37,406 bases of DNA from IMG/VR virus record IMGVR_UViG_3300035102_000132, positions 1 through 37,406 of that record; one strand, 5' to 3'. The DNA comes from a virus (lineage: Duplodnaviria > Caudoviricetes). Each line of letters begins with the position of its first letter. Positions within the stretch are counted from its first letter, which is position 1. This document shows, piece after piece, positions 1,431 through 36,689 of this stretch. Below the pieces are notes generated by a model that did not search any database, was not told the DNA's origin, and was given only the letters and a program-made list of their open reading frames with translations. The translations under genes were made by a program, and so were the position numbers.

Positions 1431-3863
1431 TTAGTTAAAATCTACCCAGGAGCCATTTGCATAGCCTCTGAATTTCTGGGTAGTTGTGTCATAATAAATG
1501 TCACCATCACTCGGTGAAGTAGGTGCAGAAGAACGGGCAACATTAATGCTGTCTGCTGTAACTTTGCCTGTTACATCCAGCGCTCCATTTACCTTTTCAT
1601 TCCCGCCAACTATGAGCATATAACCCTCTTCATAACCAGCGCTGCCGATAGTGACATAATCGCCATAAGTGCTTATGAGAGTGGCGGTTCCATTCCGGAT
1701 TTGGCAATACGAACTTGAATTGTTACCCAGGTAGATGCTGCCACCGCCTGATAAAGTTCCACCTGAATAAGTAATTCCAGAAGATGAATCAGAAGGCTTG
1801 GTTATAGAAGTAACATCCCCCGACAATTCACCACCTGAAGCAAACATTCTTCCCCAGGGCAACTTTGCAGAAGGGCTGTCTATCCAGACAGCTATCTGAG
1901 CATAACCAGGGCTATAAAAACCAGAATCAAGGTCTCTATCATGTGGAAAATCTGGATGTTTAAACCCAATAGGCAAAGTAGAGGAGCCTGTAGAGTCTGC
2001 TAAAATAGCTGGTGCGGTTGCGGCAGGCAAATCGGCTATTAAGTTTTCAACCTCAAGTCTTTCAATTGAAGCAGAAGCAACTACAGCCTCAGAAAAAGAA
2101 GCTGGTGGATATACCTCAAGCAATCCTGAACCAGCCGACAAAACTTTGGTGCCTTCTGCATGAAACTCGACCTTGCCACTATTAAAAGAAACTTTTGTTG
2201 TTTCATCTCCAGGCTGATAGAAATTTGCAGCGGTAAAATCATCAGCTTTAACCCCGCCATTAACGTAGAGCCTATAGCCTGCATCAGAAGATGTTCCAAG
2301 CAAGAAGTTTCCGCCGGGGGTCATTCTGAATCTTTCAATTCCTGTCCCATTCTGGATAATAAAAGCGTTCGGCTCATCGGTAGGAGCCAAAAGCCTGACA
2401 TAATGGTTTAATGGATTGCTTCCAGGCGCGTAAGGCGATAACCACAACTGAGCCGGGATTCCTGTTTCAGGAACAAGAACAATCCTATATTTTGTCATTT
2501 CCGGCGCATTAGTAGTGCCGTAGGCATCAGTTATGCCATAACCGGCAAGAGTAGTAGGAGTGTTTTCAAGATATGCAAATTGCTTATTCTGTATGCTGTA
2601 AAAGTTCCAGCTTGCGCTTGTAGGTTTGTTTGTGAGGCTTTGGTAATTTTTTTCGGACAATCCGGACAAAGTGTAACTGGCATTTGTCGGCTTCCCATTG
2701 AGACTTGAAAAGTCCTTTTCAGATAAGCCAGATAGGGTATAGCTTGCGTTAGTAGGCTTTTCATCAAGGCTTGAAAAGTTCTTTTCAGATAAACCCGACA
2801 AGGTATAACTGGCATTTGTCGGCGCTCCTGTAATATCGGCGTAATTAACTTCACCACTCGGAAGAATCTCAACGCCATTTACCGTAAGACTGGCCACGTT
2901 CATATAACCAGACGCATTTATGTTTGTGGTATCTATTCCACCATTAGCAAATAGGGTGCCTGTAACTAGCGCCCATTGCCCAATTGATATACCTTGATTT
3001 GTTGAAATATTTCCATCAGTAACGGTAATACCACCATCAGTTAGAAACAACTCTCTTGCATGAAGATCATAGTTTGTTGAAAGATTGCCAGGAATATAAA
3101 GATCGTCACCGGTAAAACTTAATTTATCTAACTTTTCAACTGAAAAAGTGCCAGTTATGCCATTAAAACCAATAGTAAGCGCAATATTTGCCCCGGTTTC
3201 ATCATAAAAGTAGGAAATTCCATCGATATTAATTGAAGATTTGGGGCATGTAAAAATATAAACAGTTTCAGTTGCCGCACCTGAATACCCTTCGGTATCA
3301 ATTATGAGGTTCGCTGCCGTCAAATTACCCAAAGCAAGTGCAGCTTCCGTTCCATAGTCGTCTCCAGCTTGTCCAATCCTGATGTTTCCGAGAACATTCT
3401 TGCTGCCGGTAAGCCTGAATATTTCAGCTGCCGCGCCTTCTGGAACCAACCGGCCCATTGAATCAATAAACAAACCATCTTTGTTATCAATATGAACCGA
3501 ACCACTAAGATTAAAAATGCCTTGAGGTATTCTTAAAACCGAACCATCAGCCAATTGAGCGCAAGCAGAAGCAAAAGCCGTATAGTCATCAATTCCGTCA
3601 TTAGGTATTGCGCCAAAATCTGTAACATCAATAACTTCTGAGTCACTTAGCCGGATCGCTTTTCTAAAAACTTCAGCGCCAGCAAGATCAATTGATTCTG
3701 TAGCATTGCTTAAGTCTCTCTTTAAGGCATCGGTTATGCCATAACCATCAAGACTATCAGGAGTGTCCTCAATCATAAACCAAGGAGGGCCGGTCATGGC
3801 AAAGCCGCTGGAATTGAATAAAACGAAAACAATCAAGAGAAAAACTAATCTGGTATAACGCAT
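1431..3863 (-). CDS. Tail fibre/tailspike-like protein with pectate-lyase-like beta-helix start, internal repeats and a signal peptide
   Basis: VIDVTDFGAIPNDGIDDYTAF (Pectate_lyase_3-like start); PTTLAGYGITDA fibre motif; ERFRMTPGGNFLLGT shaft motif; C-terminal PTSPSDGDIYYDTTTQKFRGY..W motif. Confidence 0.8.
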   Translation of the reverse strand: MRYTRLVFLLIVFVLFNSSGFAMTGPPWFMIEDTPDSLDGYGITDALKRDLSNATESIDLAGAEVFRKAIRLSDSEVIDVTDFGAIPNDGIDDYTAFASACAQLADGSVLRIPQGIFNLSGSVHIDNKDGLFIDSMGRLVPEGAAAEIFRLTGSKNVLGNIRIGQAGDDYGTEAALALGNLTAANLIIDTEGYSGAATETVYIFTCPKSSINIDGISYFYDETGANIALTIGFNGITGTFSVEKLDKLSFTGDDLYIPGNLSTNYDLHARELFLTDGGITVTDGNISTNQGISIGQWALVTGTLFANGGIDTTNINASGYMNVASLTVNGVEILPSGEVNYADITGAPTNASYTLSGLSEKNFSSLDEKPTNASYTLSGLSEKDFSSLNGKPTNASYTLSGLSEKNYQSLTNKPTSASWNFYSIQNKQFAYLENTPTTLAGYGITDAYGTTNAPEMTKYRIVLVPETGIPAQLWLSPYAPGSNPLNHYVRLLAPTDEPNAFIIQNGTGIERFRMTPGGNFLLGTSSDAGYRLYVNGGVKADDFTAANFYQPGDETTKVSFNSGKVEFHAEGTKVLSAGSGLLEVYPPASFSEAVVASASIERLEVENLIADLPAATAPAILADSTGSSTLPIGFKHPDFPHDRDLDSGFYSPGYAQIAVWIDSPSAKLPWGRMFASGGELSGDVTSITKPSDSSSGITYSGGTLSGGGSIYLGNNSSSYCQIRNGTATLISTYGDYVTIGSAGYEEGYMLIVGGNEKVNGALDVTGKVTADSINVARSSAPTSPSDGDIYYDTTTQKFRGYANGSWVDFN
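2600..2830 (-). repeat. About 3.5 tandem 66-bp (22-aa) repeats PTNASYTLSGLSEKxFSSLxxK
   Basis: Visible directly in the translation and the DNA (CTTGAAAAGT.CTTTTCAGATAA recurs at 66-bp spacing). Confidence 0.9.
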
Positions 3864-3865
3864 GA

Positions 3866-4909
3866 TTAATTTCTCCCCAGATATTCAATAATAAACGCCC
3901 TGGTTCCAAACAGATCATTTTTCAATTGAAAAGCATAAGCATCGGAATCGAAATAAACACAGAGTTTTCCTGCTTCATCTGTTGCAGCGCTGTTAGTTCC
4001 ATACTGCTTAGTTACAGTGTTGCTGCCATTCATAACCACATTTATTGCAGCATCAGTAGTGGTGCAAACAACTCTTAACTCACCACAGGGCATGTTCTGA
4101 CAACCAAGCAAATACATTAAATCGGTTTTTGCACCTGATGTAAGCTCAACCCTTAGAACCTTTCTCATACAATCACTACCTGGTGAAACTGTTTGCTCAC
4201 CGGTAACAGAAGCGCCATCACTATTAAGAGTTAAAGTCGGTGTTCCAGAAATTGTATCTCCAGTTCCTACCGGGTAAAACTCCATAGTATTCCTGCCCGT
4301 GCTACCAGTTGAAAACATTGTCTTGGTAGAAACATTGCCTATAAGCATATTATTCAAGGTATCGCGAAAGTAATTAGCCCCAATGCTTGAAGAAACAACT
4401 TCGGTAATACCATAGCCTGAAAGCGTGGTTGGCGTATTAGTAAGGCTTGAAAAGCTTTTTTCGCTTAAACCCGATAATGTAAAATCTGAATTAGTCGGTA
4501 AGTCTTCTGAGGTAATAGCATCGGTTATTCCATAACCGGACAAGGTGGTTGGTTTGTCGGTAAGGCTTGAAAAGCTTTTTTCGCTTAAACCAGATAAGGT
4601 AAAATCTGAATTAGTCGGTAAATCCTCTGAAGTAATAGCATCGGTTATTCCATAACCGGACAAGGTAGTCGGTTTGTCGGTAAGGCTTGAAAAGCTTTTT
4701 TCACCCAATCCCGCCAAAGTAAAGCTGGCATTATTAGGCAAGTCTGTATATTTGGCTGCATCCAAAATACCAAAACCGGCTAAATCTGTAGGAGTTTCCT
4801 CTACATCTTCCCAGGTTACTTTGCTTTTACTTTGAACAGCAGGCCCGTTTTGAGCAAAAGCCGTTGAAACAGAAAAGATCAGAATTAATGCTAATGCTTT
4901 ATATTTCAT
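3866..4909 (-). CDS. Second tail-fibre-like repeat protein with a signal peptide
   Basis: MKYKALALILIFSVSTAFA|QN (AFA cleavage motif); repeated PTTLSGYGITDA phage-fibre motif. Confidence 0.75.
   Translation of the reverse strand: MKYKALALILIFSVSTAFAQNGPAVQSKSKVTWEDVEETPTDLAGFGILDAAKYTDLPNNASFTLAGLGEKSFSSLTDKPTTLSGYGITDAITSEDLPTNSDFTLSGLSEKSFSSLTDKPTTLSGYGITDAITSEDLPTNSDFTLSGLSEKSFSSLTNTPTTLSGYGITEVVSSSIGANYFRDTLNNMLIGNVSTKTMFSTGSTGRNTMEFYPVGTGDTISGTPTLTLNSDGASVTGEQTVSPGSDCMRKVLRVELTSGAKTDLMYLLGCQNMPCGELRVVCTTTDAAINVVMNGSNTVTKQYGTNSAATDEAGKLCVYFDSDAYAFQLKNDLFGTRAFIIEYLGRN
4400..4745 (-). repeat. Three tandem 120-bp (40-aa) repeats LPTNSDFTLSGLSEKSFSSLTDKPTTLSGYGITDAITSED
   Basis: TAAGGCTTGAAAAGCTTTTTTC occurs at 4441, 4561 and 4681. 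Confidence 0.95.
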
Positions 4910-5325
4910 TCAGAGAACCCCCAAGCACCATCTAAAACAATTACTGTTGACGTTGCAGTTCCAAGAACAGCGCCTACAAAAGTTCCTGCATTTCCGCTCC
5001 AAATATATGGAGGCTCATCTTCTACAACAAGACGACCTACACGGCTTGAACCTGTGGCAATATTTTCATGGTGACCTATAACAAAAGAACCTGAAGCAGC
5101 TCTAAGTTCAAAACCTATGGTGCCATCTGGAAGATAATCAACCAGGTTTACAGGCGTAACATCGTCTATAGTAATTGTTGGTGTAGCAACCTTTTTAAAA
5201 CCAAAATTACACTGTATGGGATTCCCTGACTGAGTAGGCCAATGAGGTTGTTCGGCCTTTACTACACCAGCTAATAGAAAAAACAGCGCCGCAATCATGA
5301 CGGCGCAATAGATGAAACGCTTCAT
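4906..5325 (-). CDS. Beta-rich hypothetical protein with signal peptide; first gene of the fibre/lysis operon
   Basis: MKRFIYCAVMIAALFFLLAGVVKA|EQ; GGAGG RBS; ATGA overlap with the next gene. Confidence 0.75.
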   Translation of the reverse strand: MKRFIYCAVMIAALFFLLAGVVKAEQPHWPTQSGNPIQCNFGFKKVATPTITIDDVTPVNLVDYLPDGTIGFELRAASGSFVIGHHENIATGSSRVGRLVVEDEPPYIWSGNAGTFVGAVLGTATSTVIVLDGAWGFSE

Positions 5326-5373
5326 ATTCTGACCTCCGTGTCAATAAGTTTGAAGCCTCCGGCTTCTATTTAT

Positions 5374-5406
5374 ATTATATCATCTATTATCAGTTTATTG
5401 ATAATA
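5374..5406 (-). promoter_or_regulatory. Extended -10 promoter (TGA-TATAAT, 5382-5374) with adjacent palindromic operator TATTATCA-N6-TGATAATA (5385-5406)
   Basis: Seen in the sequence; the same palindrome occurs at 26608-26629. Confidence 0.65.
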
Positions 5407-8400
5407 ATTTTCTTTTAATTTCCGAACAGAAGCATTCAATTTTTTTTGTAAAATCAGTATTTTTTCCTTCTTTTTGTCTTCTTTTAGCTTACTTTTCTCT
5501 ATTTTCCCGATTTCTTTTCTTGCATGCTTAACTCTTTTGTATATCTTGTGCTTACTCTTCCAGTCCTTAAGCCTACTCAAGTCATTATTTCTTTTGGCTG
5601 CCTGAACTCTCTGCATAATATCAACGTTTTCTCGGAACTCATCATAAACGCCATAATCTCTTGTCTTTCCTGAGAAAACACGGGTTATAGGCATTTCAGA
5701 AGTTTCAAGAGGCTGGCCTTTATATATCTTTTCAGCTGTTTCTAATGATCTTCTGAGAAACTTGCCCGGGCCACCTGCATAGTATTCAAGCAAATATTGA
5801 ACATCTGCAGGTGATATATCTATTTCGCCAGATTCATACTTATTGCCACCGGTGAACCTGTTTAACCAACTAAATAAGTCCACAAGTGTTTTATTAGTTG
5901 TTTCCCAATATCTATGGCTTTCAGGCTCATCAACTCCAAAAGGATTTTTACCTGGCTTGATTTTTCTTCCAGTCCATTCAGAATTTGTATCGAGACTATA
6001 ATAAGACTTAGCTATAGTTGGAACCAAGGAAGCAAACAGGCCCCGGTTATCTCCGCCTATAGGATTAAAAGCATTTACAAAGGCGTTTGCAATGCTGCCG
6101 GCTCCCTGGCCTATTGTTTTGTTTCCGCTCATCATTTCAGAGCCAATTCGACCTACAGTAGGTAAAACATTATATCCGTAAGGCATCGGAAAGCTGAAGT
6201 ATTTACCCTTGGTGCCTGGTCTCATTAAAATAAAATGAGTGTCTTTAATATAATCATCGATTTTATTGTAATAGCTCTTTTCATCGTCATCGTCATAATC
6301 TGACAAAGCCTTGTTAAGCATATCCATCATAAAACCGAAAGTCATCATTGATGCTATTGCTGCTTTACCCTTGTTCGTTTGCCCCAACCTTTTGAGCGAT
6401 TTTATAACAACATAGTTGCCCTGAATGCCTGCATTTGAGAATAAGTAAGCAAGATTCAGCCATTTTCCGGCATCACCTTTTTTATTAAAATCAACTGTGA
6501 GGTTTCTTGCAAAATATGCAGCTTTTTGTTTTGATAATCCGGCTTCACGAGCAACTTTATAACCGGCAAATCTTGAGGCACTCTCGAAAATATCATTTGC
6601 AGAACTGATTAAATTCCCGATCTGTTTTGTAGCAGTCTTGGTTTTAAACCAGGCTGTGTTATTAATTCTTTCTGAAATTTCCTTTTCAAGCTTTGCGGCT
6701 CTATCTTCAAGCTGGAACATTTCTGAATAACCAGTTTTACCACCTTCTTCAAGGTATTCCTTATACAATCTTGTGTTGTCGTTTTTTACGCCTCTAACAT
6801 ATTGGAAACCTGTTTTTATTGCGCCAGGAACGCTTTTTGTTATTTTCGCTGCCATTTTCAAAGAGTCTGAACCTGAAGCATTAACAAAAGCAGTTTGAAC
6901 ATCTCTTGGTAAATTGCGGAACAAGAACTCAGGGCTAAATTGTGTGTGAATTAACCCCATGTAATTACGAAGTGAAAACGCCCATTTAAGCAATGTTCCG
7001 AACTCTTCATCAGGTTTTTTATGTTTAAAAGCACTCTTTAAGTCAGGATCATTGATAAAGATTCCAGTGTCTTGTCCGCCAAATTTTGCATGAACAACAT
7101 TTTCTCTGTCGGTAAACTGGTCTATCCGGTAATCAACTTCACCGGTATTTTCATTAAAAAACTGTTTTACTCGGCCTATATCCAGTTCGTAGACTTCCGG
7201 CAAAGGATTCAATAAAGCCATTCGAGCAAAAGCCTGATAAACTCTGTTATATTCACCACGGCCAAAAGTTACACCTATTGCTTGTTCAGAGTAGGCAAGA
7301 TGATGTTCTGCTTTTGAGACACGCCCTAAAGCTCGCCGATCTAATCGGTTGCCCCCGTCCGGAATGCTCTTTAAGGGAGTGTAATATTTATACTTGTTAT
7401 CAATTATTTCTTTGAGGTCTTTATCAAGCAAATCATATTTAACCTGCATATCAAGTAGTTTGCTGTGCATGTTCCAATACATTCGCCCGGCCTTCATAAG
7501 CTTTTCAAAGCCATGCTTTTTGCTTAACGCCTTTAAAGTCGCTTCTGCTTCTTGATCAGACATACCAGAACCCGCAATACCTTTTAAACGAAATTCAGGA
7601 TTAATGCTTTGTATATAAGCATTTCTCTCTGGCGCGTGCATGGCATAGACAAAGTCATTAAAATCATTATAGGTAATTCCATTTTCTGCCATGTAATCTT
7701 TCAAAGGTTCCAGATACTTCTTTTCAAAGGCTTTTTGTCGATTCTCAATCCTGCCTTTAACATTGGCAAACCTCTCGTAAGCGTTCTGCCAATCAGGGAG
7801 TTTTTTATTAGCCATAGCTTCAATTTCCCTCTGGAGTTTTTGAAGCGGTCTTTTCGAGTCAGCCCAAAACTTAATAAGCTTGTCTTTATAACTTTCCATC
7901 TTGGCGTTAAGGTCTTTTGGTTCTTTTTTCTCTTTTATAGCTTGCTGACTTTTCTCTTTTCTTCCCTGTTCACTGAGGAACCTGTCGGCCTTCTGTTGTT
8001 TTTTAAACTGCCTTTGCTTTTGTCTTTCTTCGCGTAATTGCTTTATCTTTTCTCGTTGCTGCTGCTTTCGCTGCCTAATAGACGCCTGCTGTTGGCTCCT
8101 TTTAAGGCTTTCAAAAATAGTTGATTTTATAGTTTTTCTGGCGGTGCCAATGGTTAAAAAATGCCGGTTTGTTCCAGCCCATTCCCAATGACCTTTAGGA
8201 TTTTTGGTTATCGTTGCAACTGTTTCAACACTTCCTCCAGGAATTAAAAGTTCTAATTCAGCTCTCTTATGATTTATCTTCTTCCATTGCAAATTTTTTG
8301 ATTGGATCAGGCGCGAAAACTTCGCTATTGCTTCTTTTTCTGAGCTTTCCAAGGGTTTGACTTTTTGGCCAGAAAGAGTATCATTTTTAGTAGAAGAGTC

Positions 8401-11400
8401 CGAAAACGGGGCACTTGCCTTTTGGTAATCCCGGAGTCCATCTTTTTGGGCGTAGGACTCTTTCTTTATTTCAATATCAGACAGCGTATGAGTGTGGTAG
8501 TTGTTCTTTTCCCCGTATTGCTTTACTACGAGTTTTACTCGATAATTCTCGCCATCAAACTTAACATTCGTTGAAAGATAATGGATCTTATCAGCAAAAT
8601 TCTTTTTGATTCCTTTGTTTTTGTCATCAACTGAATTTTCGTAAACAGCTTGCTCTACCAACTTATCTAAAATTGGCAGAGAGTGTTTGTGAGTTTCAAT
8701 TTTCTCTTTTCTGTTTTTTCTATAAGCAAGCTGTATAACGGTTTCTTTAAGGCCTTTTCCAACAAATTCAATTTCCGCATTCAGGCTTTCATTGAATACG
8801 CTTTTTCCCTGAAATTTCTCTTTTAACCAATCTCTAATGGCAGATATAGAATCTGTTTTCAATCCATCGGGTAGTTCTACAGGTAATTCAATTATTTCCT
8901 GAGTAGACTTTCGGATCGGCACCTCACTGATAGAACCACGTCTTGGGTTTTTCATGGGTTTGACTTTCTGGCCAGAATGAGTATTATTTTTAGTAGAAGA
9001 GTCTGATGTAAGCACAGGGCTATCTAATCCACTTTTTGTGGTGAAGACGTTCGCAAGGTTTTCTGGGGCAACCCTTTTAACCGTCGCTGTCAGACTCTTT
9101 TCTTTATCTCGGGTGTATTGTTTGTCGCTCAATAGATGAACAGAGCGAACATGGTAACCATCAGGTTTCTTAACTATATCTATTTTTACTTTCGGATTCT
9201 TAAAATAGCGCTTCCCTTCAACCTTTTTAATCAGTCCTTTTAATTGGCCTTTTTCCTCAGTAGCAAAGTCTGGACTTTTCAAGACTTCTTCAACAACGCT
9301 TTTAGCTTCTTCTTGGCTCTTGAAATATTCCGGGTGTCGTTTAAGCAAAAAGTCATAATCTGCAACAACCCTGTTTTTGGGTATTCCAAGCAATTCAAAA
9401 GCCCTGTCACTTGCGGGAACGTTACTGTCCCTCAATGGCTTTTTACCTGAAGGAAGCTGGATAGCACCACGCCTTGGGTTTTTCATGGGCTTGACTTTCT
9501 GGCCAGAAAGAGTATCATTTTTAGTAGATGATGCTCCGGCAGTGGTATCGCCGAAAGGTGTGCCACCCTTATGCTGGAGCATCTTTATTTCTGTCAACTC
9601 AAGTGAATATACTCGGTGCCCGTGCTCTATGCTTTCCTTCGCGGTCATATATGCCGCCGCTTGAGCATCGCCAAAAAGAACCGGCGCGGCAAATCTCTTA
9701 ACAGAAGAGATGTTTGCGTCTCCGGCTTTATCTGGTCCGTTTTCGAGTAACACTGCATGTTTCCACAGTCGGTCTATGCTTGCTGCCGCCGCGTTGTGTT
9801 GTTTGGCGTCAAAGCCATTCTTTTGGGATTTTTCAAGCGCGGTAAGACTAATCAGCTTGTTACGCTGCGTGCTGTTAATTTTGGCTTCGACACCGGTGTC
9901 GAAATTTATCAGCCGTTTTCCAGAAAGTCCTATCAACTTCTGCTTCGCTTCATCTAGCGTGATCTCAGCATTGATTGTTACATCAGAAACAACAGTGGGA
10001 TCGTTGAATTTTTTAACAAGCTTATCTATCTTCTCAGCCATATCAGACTGACCAGTAGTATCACTTGCAGGAACGTTACTGTCCCTCAATGGCTTTTTAC
10101 CTGAAGGAAGCTGGATAGCACCACGCTTACCAAGCTTTTTATTTGCTACCTGAAGGTCTTTCCATAAGCTTCTAAGATGCTTCTTCACAGGCTGGCCGAA
10201 CTGGTTGAACATTTGCCGCGCCCATTGAGCAAAGTTTTTCACGCCTGATCGAATCAATTCAAACCCGCGTTTAACAATGCTTCCCGCTTTTTTCAAACCT
10301 TTGGCGGTGTATCTGGCAACCAGGTATTCAACTGAGTAGAGCGGTTTTTCTGTTCTGGCCGGTTTTTCAATAGTAACCAACTGAGAGTTCACACCGGTTT
10401 GCCTGAAAGCATCTTTACCGGTAAAAGCCTGTCCTAATTCTTCTGATTCGCCTTCAACCTTATCTAACCAGTCGCGGAAATTCTGAGATTCTTTATCGTT
10501 GGCAAAAGTCCAGTGATTACCAGTTATCGCAACAAGTTTACCGCCGGGCTTCAACAGGTCATAAGCTTTTTTAACATGCTTCACGTCTCTGTTTTTACTG
10601 AACGGCGGGTTCATAATGATACGGTCATAGCTTTTGTCGGCTTCGGCTTCAAAACCTTCAAAATCTCGATCAATTATAGTGTGGCCTTTGGCTTTCAAAA
10701 TGTTTCTTAAATCGCCCACAGGCTCTATAACCTCAATATTTGCTTCGGGGTGTGAATTTCGCACAGCATCCGCCAAGTCACCTTTACCCGCCGATGGTTC
10801 CAAAACATTCATGCCCGGCTTTATTTCAAGCTCTTTAACCATTTTTTCTGCAAGTTTCGGCGGAGTAGGGAAAAAGTCCATCCCGTCATATTTCTTGCCT
10901 ACAATAGCCCTTTCAGCTTCTTTTATCGGGTCTGCCTTGCGCTTACCCTCAGAGAGGTTTTTGTATTCAATTAAAGCGTCCGCAAGGTCAGAGTCAGAAT
11001 TTATCCCGGCCTTTTTCAGCTTTTGAAAGTGTTTAATGCTGTCGAGTATTCTTTCTAACTGGTAAGGAACTTTTATTTTCTTTTTGCCAAGGTTGGCTTT
11101 GATTTTTAAAATTCGGTCTATTTGCTCATCGCTCAAGTAAAGATTGCGCTCCCTGTTTTCGTTGCCTATCTTTTCAAGAAATTTTGCAGCGATTTTCATT
11201 CCAGGCAAATCTTTAAGATCATCTGCCGCCATTCTGAACCATTCGCCATAAGGTTTCGGTCTTTCAAAAACAACGTTTTCTCTGATAATATTCTCGGTTG
11301 CCTCAAAGTCTTTTCCGTAAGGCAGGTCGTTTTTTCTTCTGTGGTTGTTTTTTGTGTCTCTCAGCTCATCAATAAAAACCTCAAGGTCTGGTCTTGATTT

Positions 11401-14400
11401 AACATTGCTTAAATACTTAACCTCGCCCTTTTCCATAGCATCGGCTATATTAAGCATGGTTTTTGCAAAGGCTTCCTTTGCTGCTGCATCTGCTTCGGCT
11501 CCTGCCGCCATTCTTGCACGTCTGGCAGTATTGGTTTGCCTGTCCTGGTTCATTTTCTCCTGAGCTTTTTTCAAGAGAGAATTGCCAGATTTTCTAAGCT
11601 TCGCGGCATTCTGCAGAAGTGCCGCATTCTCCGATGTGATTTTAAGTCCAGGCCTTTTGCCTTTCTTGACTTCAACCTGATCTGTGGTTATATTTTTAGT
11701 AGAAGCCTGTGGCGAGAGAGCTGTGTCACCTCGTCGGCCCTTTTGGGTTCTGGAAGTGTTCGTCGTCTTTCCAGACGGGCTTTTGTCTTTTGCAAAGGCT
11801 GTTAATAACCACTTTTTACTTCTCCCGTCCCAAGCAAGACGGACGCTTGCAAAATGATCGTCAGATTCAAGTTTAATCCTGTTTTCGCTTTTTGAAGAAA
11901 TCTTCATATTAAAAAGAATGTTATGAAGATTGTTCAAAACTTCCGGGTGAAACTTGGCTATCTTCGCCAAACCATAACCATTGCTTTTGCCTGTCCCGGG
12001 TTTTCCGTAAACAAGATCAATTTCGCCAACGTCTTTATGATATAGTGCGCCTGGAACTTCCCCAGTCTTTGCCTCAAGAAGTGCCTTAACTGCTTCTTTT
12101 GGCTTGCCGCGATATTCTTCAAAGACAGGGCCAAAGTCACCAGATTTTTGGTATAAGCCCTCAACCTTTTCCGTTTTGGAAACAGTTGAATTCAGCTCAT
12201 TGGCTTTATCTTCAGCGGCTTCTTTTTTGCTGTGCCATGAATACTGTTTACCTTTTGGATCAAGGACACGGTAGCCGCCCTGGAATGGCGCGACTATATA
12301 TTCTGCAAACTCAGGAAATTTTTCATTATATTGCTTGCCAGCTATGGCGTTAGCTTCATCTAAGCCGATTGAGTCTAGAGCTTGTTTTTTTGTAATAAAC
12401 CTTCCGCTATCAGTAATAAAGCCCGACACAAAGTTTTTTTCAAGCTCTGTATAGTTTTCAACAACGCCAGCGTCTAACATTTTATTAAAAGCGTCTGCGT
12501 GAACTTCACCAACATAAACCTTATCGCCTTTTCCACGAAAAGCAGATGCTACAACCGGATCTTTTTTATAGTCATACGTAGGTTCGGGTTGCTTATTAGT
12601 TTGTTTATTTCCAGACTCAGATTTTACGTTAGGCTTTTCAACTTGTAAGGATTCTTCACCAGTTGGGCTTAAGTTTGGTTTCTGCTCTATTGCCCTGCTT
12701 TCTTTAATCAACTTAGCTCTCTTGTTCCACAAAGCATCTTGCCTCTTAGTAAGTTTGGCAATTTGTTTATCAATTTTACTTGTAGCTTCTGCGTTGCTGG
12801 TTCTTACGGACTTTTCAATAAGCCTTTCTCTCTGGGCCTCAATGCTTTTAATTCTTTCAGACAATTGCTCAATCGTATTAAGCTGACTGTCTTTTCTGAG
12901 GTTTTCGTTAGCATCCTGTGTTAATCTTTTTTCGATTCGTGAAGCATCGCCTTCTTTACCAGTCAGGCGTGTAACTCCCTGTTTTTTTACTGATCGTCTT
13001 TCAACTATTTCAATATCCCCTGAAGGCTTGGGAAGCTCTGACTGTATTCTGGTTGGCCGCTGTTCTGCTGCCTTTTTCATAAGCACAAAACCGCCCCTTA
13101 CAGGCGTTACTTCGTGGGACTCTTTAAGCTTGTTCTTTGTCTGGTAAGCCTTGACCGCTTTTTGGGTTTTAAAAGGCTTTCCGCTTTTTAAGGTAATAAA
13201 ATCCTTGTTGTTCCGACTGTCCTTAACAATACTTCCATCAGGTAAAACTGCTTTTCCATCAAAGCCCAACAAAGGAGCCTTAAGAGCAGCCTCTTTGGCT
13301 GGATCATATTCAAATATCTTATGCTTTTGTGGTTCTCCTTCCGCACGTTCCAGCTCTCTAAGTTGCTGGCCTACTTCGCCTTCCGGGAACACAATATTCT
13401 CAGGAGGAGTTAAGCCCCTGCGCTTTAATTCATTGGCAACAATCTGTTTTTGAGGATTAGTTTCTTCCAGATTCCTTGTCTGAACCATAAGGTTAAACAA
13501 CTGTATCGGCGTAGCTTTCTGAATATCTTTCTCAAGTTGATAGAGATGATAATCATCCATGCTGCCTTCAGTTGTCGGATCAAATAAAACCTCTTGTGGC
13601 GTTGAAGTTCTTTCAGCCTCCACCTGGAATGTATCAGCGGTTGCATCCGTGATAGGCTCTGAACCATAAGGTTCTTGTCTCCCTGCCTCTAATTGCTCTC
13701 TCAATATTTCAGCGCGTGATTTAACAACCGCTAACGCCTGCTTTTCTGGAACACTGGCTTTTGAATCGTTAATTTCAACTGCAAGATCGCTAATCTCGCT
13801 ATCAACGTCAGCTTTTAAAGCTTGAGAGGTCATTCTTCTGGCAGCAACATTACCACCACCAAGGACGCCACCAACCAAACCACCGGCCAAAGCCTGAGTT
13901 TCAAGGTCTTTGTAAACCTCTGGCTTTCCTAAATCTGTAATAGTTGCTTTAATTGCCTCCAATGGCGGTTTCTTTGCAAAATGAGGCGTGGCAATCTCTT
14001 CAATACCTTGTAAAACTTCTTCTGTTGATTCACCAAGAATATTTTCACCAATAAACCTTGCAACTGCGCCAGCGGTTCCCTTTTTCCCTGCTTTCTTGCT
14101 GAGTTCAAAAACAGGCTTTTGAAGAACTTTTGCAATCTTGCCCGCATTGCTCCTAAGTGCGTTCATAACACCCTTTGAGGCTCCTTTACCCCCGCCAAAA
14201 GCACGCATTGTTTTAAGAGGAGTTACACCAAGAGAGTTTTCAATCAACCCGTATGGAATAGCCGCTGCAAGCTCAAAATAAGGATTGCCTTCTCTTATTC
14301 CATTAGGGCCGGCTTCAACATTTGCCTGTCTGATTGCCGGAATACCATAAACACCAGTAGTCGATAGAAAAGAAGCTGCAGCATCAGTTAAGGGAGCCAA

Positions 14401-14946
14401 GCCTGCAGCAGAAGGAATCCCTACTGCATTCCTGGCATTGTTTAAAATAGCTCCAAGTTTTGTGCTGCCAGCCATAACAGAGCCTAAGCCTACCGATGTA
14501 GCAAGCATAGGAACATTTTGAAATAAAGCCTGGGAACCAAAGTCCACTAAATTATCAGGATCAGCAGAAGGCGAAATTTTTGCAGATTGATTGCCTATGT
14601 GCTGTGCAGCTTTATCAAGGCTTTTTGCAGCGTCCGGAAAGCCTGCAATATCTGAACCCCAAGCGCCAAGACTTACTCCTGCCTTACCAGTATTAAGGAT
14701 TCCAGAAAAAGTATCTGCAATAGCATTTTTAACTATGCCACGTTTATTGCGTATTTCCTGAGCAGTTGCAGGAGTAGCAGCTTTTTCGGCGTTTGATATA
14801 GCTTCATAAGTCTTTTTCGCCTCTTTTTCAATAACGCCTTTTTCTTCAGGAGTAAGGCTTTTAAAAACATCGCTCTTCTTAAACTTTACAAATTCTTTGT
14901 AAAAATCATGTCTTAAAGATGAAAATTCCTGATTTAAAGCTGCCAT
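5395..14946 (-). CDS. Giant polyvalent protein (3183 aa), probably virion-ejected: PBECR-like RNase, N6-adenine MTase, two LPD3-like domains, a further BECR-like domain, C-terminal LPD38-like region
   Basis: GEIDLVYG...GYGLAKIAKFHPE...WLLTAF (PBECR1-like, ~11785-12142); FFPTP...VLEPSAGKG...IIMNPPF (MTase, ~10360-10880); LPD3-like domains at ~9590-9990 and ~8465-8880; HPEYF-containing domain at ~9100-9400; RNLTVDFNKKG..YLFSNAGIQG..PMPYGYN (LPD38-like). Sits where podoviruses encode their largest ejection protein. Confidence 0.88.
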   Translation of the reverse strand: MAALNQEFSSLRHDFYKEFVKFKKSDVFKSLTPEEKGVIEKEAKKTYEAISNAEKAATPATAQEIRNKRGIVKNAIADTFSGILNTGKAGVSLGAWGSDIAGFPDAAKSLDKAAQHIGNQSAKISPSADPDNLVDFGSQALFQNVPMLATSVGLGSVMAGSTKLGAILNNARNAVGIPSAAGLAPLTDAAASFLSTTGVYGIPAIRQANVEAGPNGIREGNPYFELAAAIPYGLIENSLGVTPLKTMRAFGGGKGASKGVMNALRSNAGKIAKVLQKPVFELSKKAGKKGTAGAVARFIGENILGESTEEVLQGIEEIATPHFAKKPPLEAIKATITDLGKPEVYKDLETQALAGGLVGGVLGGGNVAARRMTSQALKADVDSEISDLAVEINDSKASVPEKQALAVVKSRAEILREQLEAGRQEPYGSEPITDATADTFQVEAERTSTPQEVLFDPTTEGSMDDYHLYQLEKDIQKATPIQLFNLMVQTRNLEETNPQKQIVANELKRRGLTPPENIVFPEGEVGQQLRELERAEGEPQKHKIFEYDPAKEAALKAPLLGFDGKAVLPDGSIVKDSRNNKDFITLKSGKPFKTQKAVKAYQTKNKLKESHEVTPVRGGFVLMKKAAEQRPTRIQSELPKPSGDIEIVERRSVKKQGVTRLTGKEGDASRIEKRLTQDANENLRKDSQLNTIEQLSERIKSIEAQRERLIEKSVRTSNAEATSKIDKQIAKLTKRQDALWNKRAKLIKESRAIEQKPNLSPTGEESLQVEKPNVKSESGNKQTNKQPEPTYDYKKDPVVASAFRGKGDKVYVGEVHADAFNKMLDAGVVENYTELEKNFVSGFITDSGRFITKKQALDSIGLDEANAIAGKQYNEKFPEFAEYIVAPFQGGYRVLDPKGKQYSWHSKKEAAEDKANELNSTVSKTEKVEGLYQKSGDFGPVFEEYRGKPKEAVKALLEAKTGEVPGALYHKDVGEIDLVYGKPGTGKSNGYGLAKIAKFHPEVLNNLHNILFNMKISSKSENRIKLESDDHFASVRLAWDGRSKKWLLTAFAKDKSPSGKTTNTSRTQKGRRGDTALSPQASTKNITTDQVEVKKGKRPGLKITSENAALLQNAAKLRKSGNSLLKKAQEKMNQDRQTNTARRARMAAGAEADAAAKEAFAKTMLNIADAMEKGEVKYLSNVKSRPDLEVFIDELRDTKNNHRRKNDLPYGKDFEATENIIRENVVFERPKPYGEWFRMAADDLKDLPGMKIAAKFLEKIGNENRERNLYLSDEQIDRILKIKANLGKKKIKVPYQLERILDSIKHFQKLKKAGINSDSDLADALIEYKNLSEGKRKADPIKEAERAIVGKKYDGMDFFPTPPKLAEKMVKELEIKPGMNVLEPSAGKGDLADAVRNSHPEANIEVIEPVGDLRNILKAKGHTIIDRDFEGFEAEADKSYDRIIMNPPFSKNRDVKHVKKAYDLLKPGGKLVAITGNHWTFANDKESQNFRDWLDKVEGESEELGQAFTGKDAFRQTGVNSQLVTIEKPARTEKPLYSVEYLVARYTAKGLKKAGSIVKRGFELIRSGVKNFAQWARQMFNQFGQPVKKHLRSLWKDLQVANKKLGKRGAIQLPSGKKPLRDSNVPASDTTGQSDMAEKIDKLVKKFNDPTVVSDVTINAEITLDEAKQKLIGLSGKRLINFDTGVEAKINSTQRNKLISLTALEKSQKNGFDAKQHNAAAASIDRLWKHAVLLENGPDKAGDANISSVKRFAAPVLFGDAQAAAYMTAKESIEHGHRVYSLELTEIKMLQHKGGTPFGDTTAGASSTKNDTLSGQKVKPMKNPRRGAIQLPSGKKPLRDSNVPASDRAFELLGIPKNRVVADYDFLLKRHPEYFKSQEEAKSVVEEVLKSPDFATEEKGQLKGLIKKVEGKRYFKNPKVKIDIVKKPDGYHVRSVHLLSDKQYTRDKEKSLTATVKRVAPENLANVFTTKSGLDSPVLTSDSSTKNNTHSGQKVKPMKNPRRGSISEVPIRKSTQEIIELPVELPDGLKTDSISAIRDWLKEKFQGKSVFNESLNAEIEFVGKGLKETVIQLAYRKNRKEKIETHKHSLPILDKLVEQAVYENSVDDKNKGIKKNFADKIHYLSTNVKFDGENYRVKLVVKQYGEKNNYHTHTLSDIEIKKESYAQKDGLRDYQKASAPFSDSSTKNDTLSGQKVKPLESSEKEAIAKFSRLIQSKNLQWKKINHKRAELELLIPGGSVETVATITKNPKGHWEWAGTNRHFLTIGTARKTIKSTIFESLKRSQQQASIRQRKQQQREKIKQLREERQKQRQFKKQQKADRFLSEQGRKEKSQQAIKEKKEPKDLNAKMESYKDKLIKFWADSKRPLQKLQREIEAMANKKLPDWQNAYERFANVKGRIENRQKAFEKKYLEPLKDYMAENGITYNDFNDFVYAMHAPERNAYIQSINPEFRLKGIAGSGMSDQEAEATLKALSKKHGFEKLMKAGRMYWNMHSKLLDMQVKYDLLDKDLKEIIDNKYKYYTPLKSIPDGGNRLDRRALGRVSKAEHHLAYSEQAIGVTFGRGEYNRVYQAFARMALLNPLPEVYELDIGRVKQFFNENTGEVDYRIDQFTDRENVVHAKFGGQDTGIFINDPDLKSAFKHKKPDEEFGTLLKWAFSLRNYMGLIHTQFSPEFLFRNLPRDVQTAFVNASGSDSLKMAAKITKSVPGAIKTGFQYVRGVKNDNTRLYKEYLEEGGKTGYSEMFQLEDRAAKLEKEISERINNTAWFKTKTATKQIGNLISSANDIFESASRFAGYKVAREAGLSKQKAAYFARNLTVDFNKKGDAGKWLNLAYLFSNAGIQGNYVVIKSLKRLGQTNKGKAAIASMMTFGFMMDMLNKALSDYDDDDEKSYYNKIDDYIKDTHFILMRPGTKGKYFSFPMPYGYNVLPTVGRIGSEMMSGNKTIGQGAGSIANAFVNAFNPIGGDNRGLFASLVPTIAKSYYSLDTNSEWTGRKIKPGKNPFGVDEPESHRYWETTNKTLVDLFSWLNRFTGGNKYESGEIDISPADVQYLLEYYAGGPGKFLRRSLETAEKIYKGQPLETSEMPITRVFSGKTRDYGVYDEFRENVDIMQRVQAAKRNNDLSRLKDWKSKHKIYKRVKHARKEIGKIEKSKLKEDKKKEKILILQKKLNASVRKLKENYYQ
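8357..8384 (+). promoter_or_regulatory. Antisense sigma70-like promoter A: TTGACT-N16-TATCAT
   Basis: Seen in the sequence; one of four homologous copies. Confidence 0.65.
8392..8471 (+). ncRNA. Putative antisense structured sRNA A
   Basis: GAAGAGTCC (8393-8401) pairs with GGACTCTTT (8455-8463); inner hairpins TTGCC-TTTT-GGTAA and GTCCA/TGGGC; U-rich tail. Confidence 0.6.
8929..9003. repeat. Linker repeat family B (SSTKNDTLSGQKVKP[MKNPRRG]); copies at ~8353-8400, 8929-9003 and 9460-9531
   Basis: Near-identical DNA at three domain boundaries. Confidence 0.92.
8960..8987 (+). promoter_or_regulatory. Antisense sigma70-like promoter B: TTGACT-N16-TATTAT
   Basis: Seen in the sequence. Confidence 0.65.
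8995..9107 (+). ncRNA. Putative antisense structured sRNA B
   Basis: AGAAGAGTCTGA (8995-9006) pairs with TCAGACTCTTTT (9090-9101); inner CCAC-TTTTT-GTGG, GACG/CGTC and AAGGTT/AACCCTT helices; U-rich tail. Confidence 0.6.
9407..9472. repeat. Linker repeat A (RGAIQLPSGKKPLRDSNVPASD), copy 1
   Basis: 66 bp with one mismatch against 10061-10126. Confidence 0.95.
9491..9518 (+). promoter_or_regulatory. Antisense sigma70-like promoter C: TTGACT-N16-TATCAT, containing the perfect palindrome CTTTCTGGCCAGAAAG (9495-9510)
   Basis: Seen in the sequence. Confidence 0.65.
9526..9590 (+). ncRNA. Putative antisense structured sRNA C with a GAAA tetraloop
   Basis: GATGCTCCGGCA (9530-9541) pairs with TGCTGGAGCATC (9572-9583); inner GTGGTA-T-CGCC-GAAA-GGTG-TGCCAC hairpin; TTTATTT tail. 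Confidence 0.65.
10061..10126. repeat. Linker repeat A, copy 2
   Basis: 66 bp with one mismatch against 9407-9472. Confidence 0.95.
11666..11694 (+). promoter_or_regulatory. Antisense sigma70-like promoter D: TTGACT-N17-TATATT
   Basis: Same -35 and downstream TTTTTAGTAGA motif as A-C, but a different spacer. Confidence 0.7.
11701..11791 (+). ncRNA. Putative antisense sRNA D, a perfect four-way-junction cloverleaf
   Basis: Closing stem 11701-11710/11775-11784; arms 11711-11735, 11736-11749 and 11750-11774 abut with no unpaired junction bases; six G-U pairs that work only on the + strand. Confidence 0.7.
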
Positions 14947-14961
14947 TATTTTTTATTCCCC

Positions 14962-15924
14962 CTATTTTGCTCTGGTGCGCTTAACTACATTTCTTTCTGG
15001 TGGCTTCAGTAAACCTCTAACCTTCTTGCTAAAATCAAGAAATTTGCTCACAACTTCAGAATTGCCTACCTGGTTGCCCTGGTTCATTCCAAGCTTTTCT
15101 TTTCCTATTTCTTGCATTTGAGCAACAGACTTTTGGTAAATATCCAATGCTTCTTGATAGCGATATTTGTCAGCTGGCTCTATCTTTGAAAGGTCAAAGG
15201 TTCCTGTTTCGTTTTCGTATTTATCCCTGATTTGAGATATAACTTTGATTGTTTCGTCTCTAATCTGTTTGAGTTCTCTGAAGCTGGCTTCACTTGTTCC
15301 TTTTCCTGGGCCTTCTTGCTCCTGGAATACATTCCCAGCAATAGGAGGAAAAGCACCTGCGGTCATTTGGGCCGCACCTGAAACCAGAGGCAAAATTGCT
15401 CGTTGCCCCTCATTCAAAGTCTTTTCAATAAAAGAATTGTCAGGTTTAAATCCATAATCTTCATTACCTGGCTTTACTGCTTCACTTTTGTTCTTCCAGT
15501 AGTTTGAACGGTGTTTAAGTATCTCTTTTTTCAAAGCTTCTGAATTATTGGAATCTCCAAGAAGCTGGGCTTCCAAGTCTGCTTTAGTAAGGCCACCGGG
15601 GATATTGCTTAGAAAAGAATTTAAAGCTTGAGAACTACCTTCTGATAAAGCACCTCGCGCCAATTCTTCTTCTTGTCCTTCTTTTAAAAGCCTGGTTTTC
15701 TTGTTTTCATATTCCTTATCTTTTCGCTTTAGCTTTCTTTTATAATCTTCCTGGTCATATTTTAAAGCCCTTGCGCGGCGTTCTTTCTCTTCCTGGAGAG
15801 CGCGAGAACGCTCAAGGTTGTATAACCTTTGCTCCTCTTTTTTTGCAGTATTCTTTCGCAAGGCATTGCTGGCCCCAGAAACTAATGCTTCAAGAAAATT
15901 TCTTGTAACTCGGCTTGCCATCAA
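14962..15924 (-). CDS. Hypothetical helical protein, probable internal/ejection protein
   Basis: Charged coiled-coil content; lies between the nozzle and the giant protein; ATGA coupling with the upstream gene. Confidence 0.65.
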   Translation of the reverse strand: MMASRVTRNFLEALVSGASNALRKNTAKKEEQRLYNLERSRALQEEKERRARALKYDQEDYKRKLKRKDKEYENKKTRLLKEGQEEELARGALSEGSSQALNSFLSNIPGGLTKADLEAQLLGDSNNSEALKKEILKHRSNYWKNKSEAVKPGNEDYGFKPDNSFIEKTLNEGQRAILPLVSGAAQMTAGAFPPIAGNVFQEQEGPGKGTSEASFRELKQIRDETIKVISQIRDKYENETGTFDLSKIEPADKYRYQEALDIYQKSVAQMQEIGKEKLGMNQGNQVGNSEVVSKFLDFSKKVRGLLKPPERNVVKRTRAK

Positions 15925-22361: not shown

Positions 22362-22657
22362 TATTCGCCTCCTTGCGAGTTTGCTTTGAGTGTTTCTTCG
22401 GCTTCTTCACCGTTTAAGATCGCCTTGTTAATGGCTGTCTTAAAGTCTCTAGCTACCTGCATTTCCAATTGTAGCATAAAAACCGGTCTATTATCAATAT
22501 TTTGATAATCAATTAGCGGCATTGTGGAAAACTCATTTTTACACCGCTCTATTATGCTGTCCGCAAGCGTATCTATAACCTCTTTTACCGTCTTGGCCTT
22601 CTTGCCGAAGTCTATCTGCTTCAACATCAAATCACGCTCTTCTTTGGTTAATTCCAT
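22361..22657 (-). CDS. Hypothetical protein between portal and scaffold
   Basis: TAATG coupling on both sides. Confidence 0.75.
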   Translation of the reverse strand: MELTKEERDLMLKQIDFGKKAKTVKEVIDTLADSIIERCKNEFSTMPLIDYQNIDNRPVFMLQLEMQVARDFKTAINKAILNGEEAEETLKANSQGGE

Positions 22658-26600: not shown

Positions 26601-26607
26601 ACCTTAA

Positions 26608-26629
26608 TATTATCAGATTTTTGATAATA
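26608..26629. promoter_or_regulatory. Palindromic operator TATTATCA-N6-TGATAATA upstream of terS
   Basis: Arms identical to those at 5385-5406. Confidence 0.65.
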
Positions 26630-26653
26630 GATAAAGCAAAGCCTGTGGAAAAC

Positions 26654-34621: not shown

Positions 34622-34785
34622 AATAGGGTTTCGGTAGCTGATAGCGTTCTCACCTTTAACGCCAGCAGCCACCTCAACCCCCTTTCTAAATCCCGCTGAT
34701 TTACGGAACTTCCACGAACCAGATCAGCGGGATTTGTATTTGTGGCAGTCCGGCGCTGCAACGCCGAACTACCGCTACCCACACA
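34622..34785 (+). ncRNA. Structured leader or sRNA (three hairpins) downstream of the consensus promoter
   Basis: GGTAGCTG..GCGTT/AACGC..CAGCCACC; AAATCCCGCTGAT/ATCAGCGGGATTT; GTGGCAGT.CGGCG/CGCCG.ACTACCGC. Confidence 0.5.
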
Positions 34786-34797
34786 AAAGGAGCTTGT

Positions 34798-35037: not shown

Positions 35038-35041
35038 GAAG

Positions 35042-35475: not shown

Positions 35476-35498
35476 TTCTTTAACTCCTTACATAATTA

Positions 35499-35527
35499 AC
35501 CATACCAAACCGCTTTGGTTTGGTCAA
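35499..35527 (-). promoter_or_regulatory. Early lytic promoter TTGACC-N17-TATGGT overlapped by operator ACCAAACC-N5-GGTTTGGT (35504-35524)
   Basis: Seen in the sequence between the divergent HTH genes. Confidence 0.8.
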
Positions 35528-35585
35528 GTAAATTTTAAAAAAATGTGAAATTTGTTCTCCAACGATGTATCATGGAGGTATGACA

Positions 35586-36680: not shown

Positions 36681-36689
36681 GATTTGACT

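What the first reader, a model, noticed from the sequence alone, without database searches (positions are those of the whole stretch)
8353..12142. Candidate new system: each RNase-like domain of the giant polyvalent protein has its own antisense promoter and structured small RNA
Seen: the same + strand layout occurs four times, each exactly at the C-terminal end of a domain. It is TTGACT-N16/17-TAT(C/T/A)(A/T)T (8357, 8960, 9491, 11666), then TTTTTAGTAGA, then a 55-110 nt segment whose 5' and 3' ends form a 9-12 bp stem, then a U-rich tract. The four RNA bodies differ in sequence but share this architecture. Many pairs are G-U and would be A-C mismatches on the mRNA strand, so the structure belongs to the antisense strand. 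Promoter D keeps the -35, -10 and start motif with a different spacer, so it is not a simple duplication. No such unit was seen after the MTase or the LPD38-like region. Known: PBECR and several LPD domains of phage polyvalent proteins are predicted BECR-fold RNases, and type III TA systems (ToxIN, AbiQ) use structured RNA antitoxins. Inference: each cassette is a toxin domain plus a cognate RNA that keeps it inactive in the lysogen or producing cell, with the domain becoming active after ejection into a naive host. Alternatives are a co-packaged RNP or antisense control of the mRNA. I do not know of a description of this layout.
Basis: partly seen in the sequence, partly recalled or inferred. 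Interest (0 to 1): 0.95.

Follow-up and report, generated by a model that had tools for sequence, protein, structure and literature searches.

The report
Hidden RNAs shadow phage RNase domains
Inside a giant phage gene, each of four predicted RNA-cutting domains is followed on the opposite strand by its own promoter-like site and folded small RNA; relatives across several bacterial phyla keep this layout, and the RNAs likely act as antidotes that would bind and silence the enzymes (untested).

Summary
Four + strand promoter-hairpin-U-tract units sit just after four domains (PBECR1, two LPD3, one PBECR-like) of a 3183-aa phage polyvalent protein.

Relatives show the units are selected as RNA genes. 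The PBECR1-linked RNA is a three-way junction with a double loop-loop pseudoknot: 25 of 28 pairs show compensatory changes, 89.9% of cells pair versus 61.9% shuffled. Its Asp codons are fixed as GAC (45/45 and 23/23; background 173/355). The promoter type follows the host phylum (TAnnTTTG in 22/26 Bacteroidota, 1/28 Pseudomonadota). Antisense promoters follow BECR-class domains (25/46) but rarely other domains (2/59). When the domain is a stand-alone gene, the RNA lies mostly beyond the stop codon. No Rfam match; no description found in ten literature searches. A review lists Northern-validated antisense RNAs on H. pylori HP1116, a gene of the same family; I could not map them.

Best reading (0.55): each RNA binds and inhibits its RNase domain, an RNA immunity gene for a virion-delivered toxin. 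It works like type III toxin-antitoxin but is not in a known family. Transcription here, toxicity and binding are untested, and strict one-to-one pairing breaks down in Helicobacter.

The parts
5395..14946 (-). 3183-aa polyvalent protein gene (P0001), in a podovirus-like virion module; likely an ejection protein
   Evidence: ORF; Pfam PBECR1, MTS, LPD3 x2, LPD38; SU10-type portal, capsid, adaptor nearby; 16815-18689 matches an internal virion protein PHROG
11761..12114 (-). Domain D: PBECR1, predicted RNase with invariant His and Thr
   Evidence: PF18809 E 2e-10; H56 and T105 invariant in A1; model pLDDT 84.5, best VIA Z 5.3 to a CdiA-CT
11666..11694 (+). Promoter-like site D (TTGACT-N17-TATATT)
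11700..11792 (+). RNA D: three-way junction (P1 11702-11709/11776-11783; P2 11710-11716/11730-11736; P3 11749-11755/11769-11775), loops 11717-11729 and 11756-11768 joined by two 3-bp pseudoknot helices, then U tract
   Evidence: model R1 hits only this site in the window with a meaningful score (85.4 bits; next 14.8)
9577..10014 (-). Domain C: LPD3, predicted BECR-like fold
   Evidence: PF18798 E 4e-14; model pLDDT 94.8, best VIA Z 5.4 RelE, 5.3 two CdiA-CT
9491..9518 (+). Promoter-like site C
9524..9592 (+). RNA C: long bulged hairpin, U tract
   Evidence: z -7.92; UGCCACC kept in relatives in two reading frames
9097..9411 (-). Domain B: unclassified, PBECR2/3-like
   Evidence: no Pfam hit; ESM Atlas 0.90 to PBECR2/PBECR3/MuF_C clusters, a lead only; homologues P0003 and L272
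8960..8987 (+). Promoter-like site B
   Evidence: near-identical promoter before a different RNA body behind a domain-B homologue in L272
8993..9108 (+). RNA B: multibranch fold closed by a 13-bp stem, U tract
   Evidence: z -3.31
8461..8889 (-). Domain A: LPD3, a second subtype
   Evidence: PF18798 E 7e-18
8357..8384 (+). Promoter-like site A
8390..8470 (+). RNA A: three-way junction closed by a 9-bp stem, U tract
   Evidence: z -3.16
8326..9531 (.). 72-nt direct repeats (8326-8397, 8929-9000, 9460-9531) holding promoters A-C; likely cassette joints
   Evidence: family D4
9407..10126 (.). 66-nt direct repeats (9407-9472, 10061-10126; 98%) flanking cassette C
   Evidence: family D6

Best explanation
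Each cassette is a predicted BECR-fold RNase domain plus a small structured RNA gene on the opposite strand just behind it, and the RNA likely binds and inhibits that domain, acting as RNA immunity for a toxin that the phage would carry in its virion. Shown: the layout, selection on RNA fold and loop sequence, host-matched promoters, and near-restriction to BECR-class domains. Inferred: the host housekeeping polymerase makes the RNA whenever phage DNA is in the cell, so a producing cell or lysogen would be protected, while a newly infected cell would face active RNase until the incoming genome makes the RNA, or lastingly if the host destroys that DNA. Writing the RNA into the linker codons would let domain and antidote move as one in-frame cassette inside a polyprotein, where a downstream immunity ORF cannot fit.
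For: (1) PBECR1 RNA, 43 dereplicated sequences: 89.9% of cells paired vs 61.9% shuffled, 25 of 28 pairs compensatory, slid controls 38-49%; pseudoknot pairs alone 97.3% vs 79.9%; the top 20 of 5198 MI/APC column pairs are all structure pairs. (2) Strand: G-U 105 vs A-C 23 cells; consensus energy -27.3 antisense vs -14.9 on the mRNA strand. (3) Synonymous sites frozen: Asp GAC 45/45 and 23/23 vs 173/355 in the domains; Ala GCY 45/45. (4) Promoter follows host: TAnnTTTG in 22/26 Bacteroidota, 1/28 Pseudomonadota, 0/3 Campylobacterota; sigma70-like 18/28 and 3/3; in-domain TAnnTTTG control 0/69. (5) Domain class: antisense promoter after PBECR1 19/34, other BECR-class 6/12, non-BECR 2/59. A blind scan of 14 ORFs (106,689 nt) gave 16 antisense hits (14 distinct units) and 0 sense; 13 of 14 follow BECR-class domains, 8 of them by construction. 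(6) Held-out Helicobacter set: strict extended -10 in 18/25 antisense, 1/25 sense, 1/25 in-domain. (7) Stand-alone genes: stop codon 15-42 nt after the domain, RNA mostly non-coding (7 examples). (8) The RNA lies downstream of the domain, the wrong side to block its synthesis by collision or occlusion (inference), and four copies in one gene would be redundant for silencing. (9) His and Thr of the PBECR active site (PMC5512222) kept in 94/95 representatives by a loose pattern. (10) Known type III antitoxins are pseudoknots (PMC4627078); 89.4% of MuF toxin genes have a small downstream ORF as likely immunity gene (PMC5576092). (11) Northern-validated asRNAs HPnc5970 and HPnc6000 on H. pylori HP1116 (review table, PMC8322730); an HP1116/jhp1044-like prophage gene and an H. 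pylori prophage gene carry these units.
Against: No transcript, toxicity or binding data for any unit. Single-sequence fold z-scores do not separate the strands across relatives (antisense better in 33/54, p 0.16). 15 of 34 PBECR1 domains and 6 of 12 other BECR-class domains had no promoter by my scan, and only 10/34 and 3/12 passed promoter plus fold z < -2. One unit follows a non-BECR region (L127). In Helicobacter, RNA types X and Y do not follow whole-domain identity and occur in tandem. PBECR1-type RNAs sit behind other BECR domains in L158 and L160. Fold matches are Z 5.3-5.4, below the level the tool calls clear. 14 of the 26 Bacteroidota rows are one close stand-alone group (embedded rows: 8/12), and 5 of 12 rows from other phyla also carry TAnnTTTG. 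The loose promoter scan has high in-domain background in AT-rich sets (14/25 and 4/11). About 46% of H. pylori ORFs have an antisense start, and I could not map the HPnc RNAs. Adjacent domain and RNA co-descend by linkage alone. Six LPD3-C RNAs gave no convincing consensus fold.
Confidence: 0.55

Rival explanations
1. Cis-antisense control: the RNAs pair with the late mRNA (or block its transcription) to silence the gene or to exclude superinfecting kin, like STnc6030 of BTP1 or convergent type I antitoxins.
For: Perfect complementarity is built in. STnc6030 lies antisense to an injection gene and excludes BTP1 (PMC7067206). Earlier scan notes report arrays of such units without the domain (e1-6982212, e1-2668651; unchecked). 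3'-overlapping type I antitoxins exist (recalled).
Against: Gives no reason for restriction to BECR-class domains (2/59 elsewhere), four copies per gene, family-specific invariant loops or a pseudoknot that ties up both loops. Stand-alone genes overlap the RNA only near the stop codon.
Confidence: 0.15
2. The RNA is a cofactor or guide: domain and RNA form an active RNP, possibly co-packaged, that recognises a fixed host RNA.
For: Two conserved 7-nt loop cores held by a covarying scaffold; domain-family-specific RNA whose loop motif decays with domain divergence (21/27, 23/46, 3/15, 0/7).
Against: Loop cores are conserved, not variable as guides usually are; matches to E. coli rRNA and three tRNAs were short and leaned on G-U pairs, with no null run; BECR RNases work without RNA partners (established).
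Confidence: 0.13
3. The RNAs are effectors in their own right (decoys for host defence or RNA-binding proteins, like RNA anti-CRISPRs), and the domain processes them or merely travels with them.
Against: No Rfam match, CRISPR repeat and tracrRNA families included; free decoys need not sit behind one domain class.
Confidence: 0.12
4. Duplicated linker or protein-level constraint with no RNA function.
For: Promoters A-C lie in a 72-nt repeat.
Against: Frozen synonymous sites, covariation, promoter switching by phylum, persistence in non-coding DNA.
Confidence: 0.02

Closest known systems
Type III toxin-antitoxin systems (ToxIN, CptIN, AbiQ; PMC4627078, passages)
   Same: Predicted RNase beside a small pseudoknotted RNA; apparent co-variation of protein family and RNA family.
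   Different: Toxin is BECR-class, not ToxN/Kid-like. RNA is single-copy, downstream, antisense, with its own promoter and usually inside the ORF; type III RNAs are tandem repeats upstream, cut by the toxin. Fold is a three-way junction with a double loop-loop pseudoknot, not H-type. Protein is likely virion-delivered.
MuF polymorphic toxins with immunity proteins (PMC5576092, passages)
   Same: Phage head-module toxin domains with a cognate element directly downstream.
   Different: The downstream element is an RNA gene on the other strand, and it repeats inside one polyprotein.
Polyvalent proteins and PBECR domains (Iyer 2017, PMC5512222, passages)
   Same: The protein is one: PBECR1, LPD3 x2, MTase, LPD38; PBECR in up to 26% of polyvalent proteins; likely injected.
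   Different: The main text has 0 hits for 'antisense' or 'noncoding'; no RNA partner or self-protection is proposed in the passages read.
STnc6030 antisense RNA of prophage BTP1 (PMC7067206, passages)
   Same: Phage RNA antisense to an injection-protein gene.
   Different: About 500-786 nt, single, acts by a proposed pairing model; no link to a nuclease domain in the passages read.
H. pylori asRNAs HPnc5970/6000 (HP1116) and HPnc2240/2250 (HP0488) (review table, PMC8322730)
   Same: Validated antisense RNAs, two per gene, on a gene family that carries PBECR domains; probably unrecognised members.
   Different: No function or structure listed; their positions relative to the domains could not be checked.

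Membership tests
Type III TA (ToxIN/CptIN/TenpIN/AbiQ) | Toxin of ToxN/Kid-related family | tested here: not met
   Pfam gives PBECR1 and LPD3, no ToxN-type hit; best fold matches are BECR-type
Type III TA (ToxIN/CptIN/TenpIN/AbiQ) | Antitoxin as tandem repeats upstream, same strand, co-transcribed | tested here: not met
   Single RNA, downstream, opposite strand, own promoter
Type III TA (ToxIN/CptIN/TenpIN/AbiQ) | Pseudoknotted antitoxin RNA | tested here: met
   For the PBECR1 RNA only, and not H-type; untested for A, B, C
Type III TA (class) | RNA binds and inhibits the toxin protein | not testable with these tools
   Needs rescue and binding assays
Type I TA / cis-antisense RNA | RNA complementary to toxin mRNA | tested here: met
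   Antisense within the ORF; overlap with coding sequence shrinks to the terminator region in stand-alone genes
Type I TA / cis-antisense RNA | Small (usually membrane) peptide toxin, one RNA per gene, covering the start or 3' end | tested here: not met
   Four RNAs in mid-ORF of a 3183-aa gene; defining features recalled
PBECR1 (PF18809), domain D | Profile score over cut-off | tested here: met
   41.5 bits vs 27.6
PBECR1 (PF18809), domain D | His in N-terminal helix and C-terminal Ser/Thr | tested here: met
   H56, T105 invariant in 11 sequences; definition
BECR fold, LPD3 domains A and C | Helix plus 4-5 strand sheet matching BECR structures | tested here: inconclusive
   C: top five VIA rows are RelE, CdiA-CT, a TA toxin and BrnT, Z 4.8-5.4, rmsd 3.2-3.5; A not modelled
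PBECR2/3, domain B | Profile or fold match | tested here: inconclusive
   No Pfam hit; Atlas 0.90, recognition 2268
Any Rfam family | Covariance model match | tested here: not met
   Three chance hits elsewhere in 5000-15500; one tRNA in 20 related loci
MuF toxin-immunity | MuF N-terminal domain and downstream immunity ORF | tested here: not met
   No MuF hit; domains are internal

The most novel reading that the evidence does not exclude
A widespread, undescribed class of phage RNA-protein modules: BECR RNases delivered in the virion, each paired with its own tertiary-structured RNA written in frame into the opposite strand, so that toxin and RNA immunity (or RNA cofactor) shuffle as one cassette. 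Orphan and tandem RNAs would be an RNA version of orphan immunity genes, and the injected RNase would punish hosts that destroy the phage DNA.
Probability: 0.6. Interest if true: 0.95.

Novelty: new variant of a known kind. Interest (0 to 1): 0.88.

Why it matters
PBECR domains occur in up to 26% of polyvalent proteins (PMC5512222), and how a phage makes such predicted RNases without poisoning the producing cell is open. This gives a testable answer. It would extend RNA antitoxins to the BECR superfamily, add many new RNA families hidden inside coding sequence (where intergenic screens do not look), give a likely role to orphan H. pylori antisense RNAs, and supply natural RNase-aptamer pairs. 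A cultured model exists: Bordetella phage BPP-1 bbp10 carries the PBECR1 unit (87.7 bits; about NC_005357 10064-10173).

Tried and rejected
Expression: no RNA holder listed among 24 runs; eight DNA runs laid as contigs confirm the sequence but cannot show transcription. Direct DNA relatives of domains A and B were scarce: none; one phage; two near-identical loci; L272 came from a promoter pattern (1 relevant of 4 hits). So units A, B and C lack family-level covariation, and six C-type RNAs gave only 4 consensus pairs. tRNA anticodon mimicry (UGUCA like tRNA-Asp, UGCCA like tRNA-Gly): set aside, because those bases are largely paired in the pseudoknot or stem. Guide pairing to rRNA/tRNA: nothing convincing. 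A MuF-C query found no cultured phage. Papers not obtainable: Bischler 2015 and a 2026 BECR classification preprint, 10.64898/2026.08.28.747851, seen only as a listing with 4 PBECR mentions; it and the Sharma 2010 supplements may bear on novelty and on mapping the HPnc RNAs. The Minerva preprint has no BECR or polyvalent mention. No ToxN-type structure appeared among the top 50 fold rows, which is not exclusion. Domain rows that stopped far short of the profile end were left out; loci without the anchor motif or too short were dropped (18 of 159; 3).
Full report
Setting. The window is a 37.4-kb phage contig held in oil-field metagenomes. ORF 5395-14946 (-) encodes 3183 aa with PBECR1, a methyltransferase, two LPD3 and LPD38, downstream of SU10-type portal and capsid genes. 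A related LPD38 protein, phi24B gp47, was found in virions and proposed to be ejected (bioRxiv 10.64898/2026.04.10.717836, passages). No integrase or repressor was recognised among the ORFs scanned, so lysogeny is not shown for this phage.

Observation. The strict promoter pattern reaches four hits in 2 of 1000 codon shuffles, with the caveat that A-C share a 72-nt repeat. Each RNA ends at the last codons of a domain: D after PBECR1, C and A after LPD3, B after a domain with no Pfam hit that the ESM Atlas places near PBECR2/3. Rfam has nothing. Contigs from other runs cover the units with few differences.

The PBECR1 RNA family. I fetched 217 loci for domain D plus named phage records. In 54 dereplicated loci, a sigma70-like site lay 60-140 nt past the domain on the antisense strand in 18, and TAnnTTTG in 15, against 3 and 0 on the sense strand. 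The segment folds better than in-domain controls (median z -2.31 vs -0.43, p 3e-7) but not significantly better than its own complement (33/54, p 0.16). From 95 representatives I selected, by protein only, the 45 with an Asp-Thr-Ala tail motif. Its Asp codon is GAC in 45/45 and that of a second motif in 23/23, against 173/355 in the domains, over 31-69% GC. 43 of the 45 were aligned (two with long insertions left out). The consensus is a three-way junction with two 13-nt loops, all 22 pairs showing compensatory change. The ends of the two loops pair with each other in two 3-bp helices; with them, 89.9% of cells pair against 61.9% shuffled and 38-49% slid, and the pseudoknot alone gives 97.3% against 79.9%. 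These shuffles ignore relatedness, and I read the pseudoknot off this same alignment; however, an unsupervised MI/APC ranking puts structure pairs, two of them pseudoknot pairs, in all top 20 of 5198. Strand is settled at family level: 105 G-U against 23 A-C cells, -27.3 against -14.9 kcal/mol. A covariance model hits only unit D in the window, so A, B and C are other families.

The promoters behave as promoters. In named genomes the motif follows the host: TAnnTTTG (the Bacteroidota housekeeping element, recalled) in 22/26 Bacteroidota and 1/28 Pseudomonadota; sigma70-like in 18/28 Pseudomonadota and 3/3 Campylobacterota. Fourteen Bacteroidota rows are one close group (embedded rows 8/12), and 5 of 12 rows from other phyla carry TAnnTTTG, perhaps through mis-binning (untested). 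In a held-out Helicobacter-like genus, a strict extended -10 lay antisense behind 18/25 PBECR1 domains, sense 1/25, in-domain 1/25 (the pattern was tightened after a loose scan gave 24/25 with 14/25 background). Where the domain is a stand-alone gene, the stop codon comes 15-42 nt after it and the RNA lies mostly in non-coding DNA.

Link to domain class. In 37 polyproteins scanned with Pfam, antisense promoters followed PBECR1 in 19/34, other BECR-class domains (LPD3, PBECR2/3/5, MuF_C) in 6/12 and 59 non-BECR domains in 2 (Fisher p 1.5e-4 for the last two). A blind scan of 14 Bacteroidota-type ORFs gave 14 distinct antisense units and none on the sense strand; 8 follow PBECR1 by construction, 5 of the other 6 follow LPD3, MuF_C or PBECR2, and one follows a weak SprT-like region. 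Held-out LPD3 domains: 7/11 antisense, 0/11 sense, 4/11 in-domain by the loose scan. The closest C-type loci show promoter and stem by eye and keep UGCCACC in two reading frames. A related phage has the same promoter and a different RNA body behind a domain-B homologue. Models of D and C match BECR toxins best, but only at Z 5.3-5.4.

Against strict pairing. The D-type loop motif fades with domain divergence (21/27, 23/46, 3/15, 0/7), which linkage alone could give. In the Helicobacter set, types V and W follow their clades, but X and Y do not, and two loci carry X and Y under one promoter. PBECR1-type RNAs also lie behind a PBECR2 and a distant PBECR domain. This fits action in trans, with spare RNAs as orphan immunity, but also the decoy reading.

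Expression. No RNA run holds this phage. A review table of Northern-validated H. pylori RNAs lists two antisense to HP1116 and two to HP0488 (PMC8322730, section 4). HP1116 names the jhp1044-like mosaic family, which Iyer describes as carrying four PBECR domains, and prophage genes of this family in H. pylori and H. acinonychis show the unit behind their PBECR1 domains (read by eye; my -10 pattern missed them). That HP0488 is a paralogue is recalled. I could not map these RNAs, so this is a lead.

Mechanism. Silencing needs neither four RNAs per gene, nor a tie to one domain class, nor invariant loops locked in a pseudoknot, and the RNA lies downstream of the domain. A shape recognised by the neighbouring RNase explains these points, and solves the problem that an internal domain cannot have a downstream immunity ORF as MuF toxins do. 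I put RNA inhibitor at 0.55, cis-antisense 0.15, RNA cofactor or guide 0.13, free decoy 0.12. Every step beyond sequence selection is inferred.

Known and new. It works like type III toxin-antitoxin (PMC4627078, passages) but fails the family tests on toxin family and layout. Ten searches found no description; only four held papers mention PBECR, one of which I could not open. Iyer 2017 has no hit for antisense or noncoding. Earlier notes of this scan saw antisense units in other polyvalent genes; the domain-class link, promoter switching and pseudoknot are tested here.

Noticed in passing
L158 3519-3628 (-); L160 2101-2225 (-): PBECR1-type RNA placed behind a different BECR domain and its own linker; possible orphan immunity RNA.
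   Followed up: partly
L236, L240, L246, L250: Long units in Helicobacter-like prophage genes; L236 and L240 hold two RNA types under one promoter. One gene (G009:C29) has seven PBECR1 domains, each of those examined with a unit.
   Followed up: partly
L203-L218, L139, L144, L146, L216, L220: Stand-alone PBECR1 genes of Bacteroidales with a distinct conserved convergent RNA family (CCAUACAGCG... motif, strong terminator) almost wholly in non-coding DNA; the cleanest test system.
   Followed up: partly
L127 near aa 967 of the ORF at 3746-8335: Antisense promoter-hairpin unit behind a region with only a weak SprT-like hit, the one exception to the BECR link.
   Followed up: partly
P0004-P0152 tails: The antisense promoter leaves a protein footprint (I-x-V[NK]) in 31/99 LPD3 tails vs 8/84 further on; usable to find units without DNA.
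   Followed up: partly
L010 ORF aa 647-734: 2H phosphoesterase with a weak Acb1 hit next to PBECR1.
   Followed up: no
window 5383-5410, 22487-22514, 26606-26633: Three copies of a 28-nt partly palindromic motif at gene boundaries; possible operator or terminator (D8 and I21).
   Followed up: no
window 11232-11615: A co-occurring relative about 85-90% alike appears in several runs over this stretch and diverges before unit D.
   Followed up: no
window 9585-10090 and 10419-10487: Single-contig joints skipping 504 and 67 bases; may come from related phages with another cassette order.
   Followed up: no
window 2522-4803: 66- and 120-nt repeat families in two tail-fibre-like genes.
   Followed up: no
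window 34587: Near-consensus sigma70 promoter before the + strand ORFs 34742-37404, which have no useful PHROG hit.
   Followed up: no
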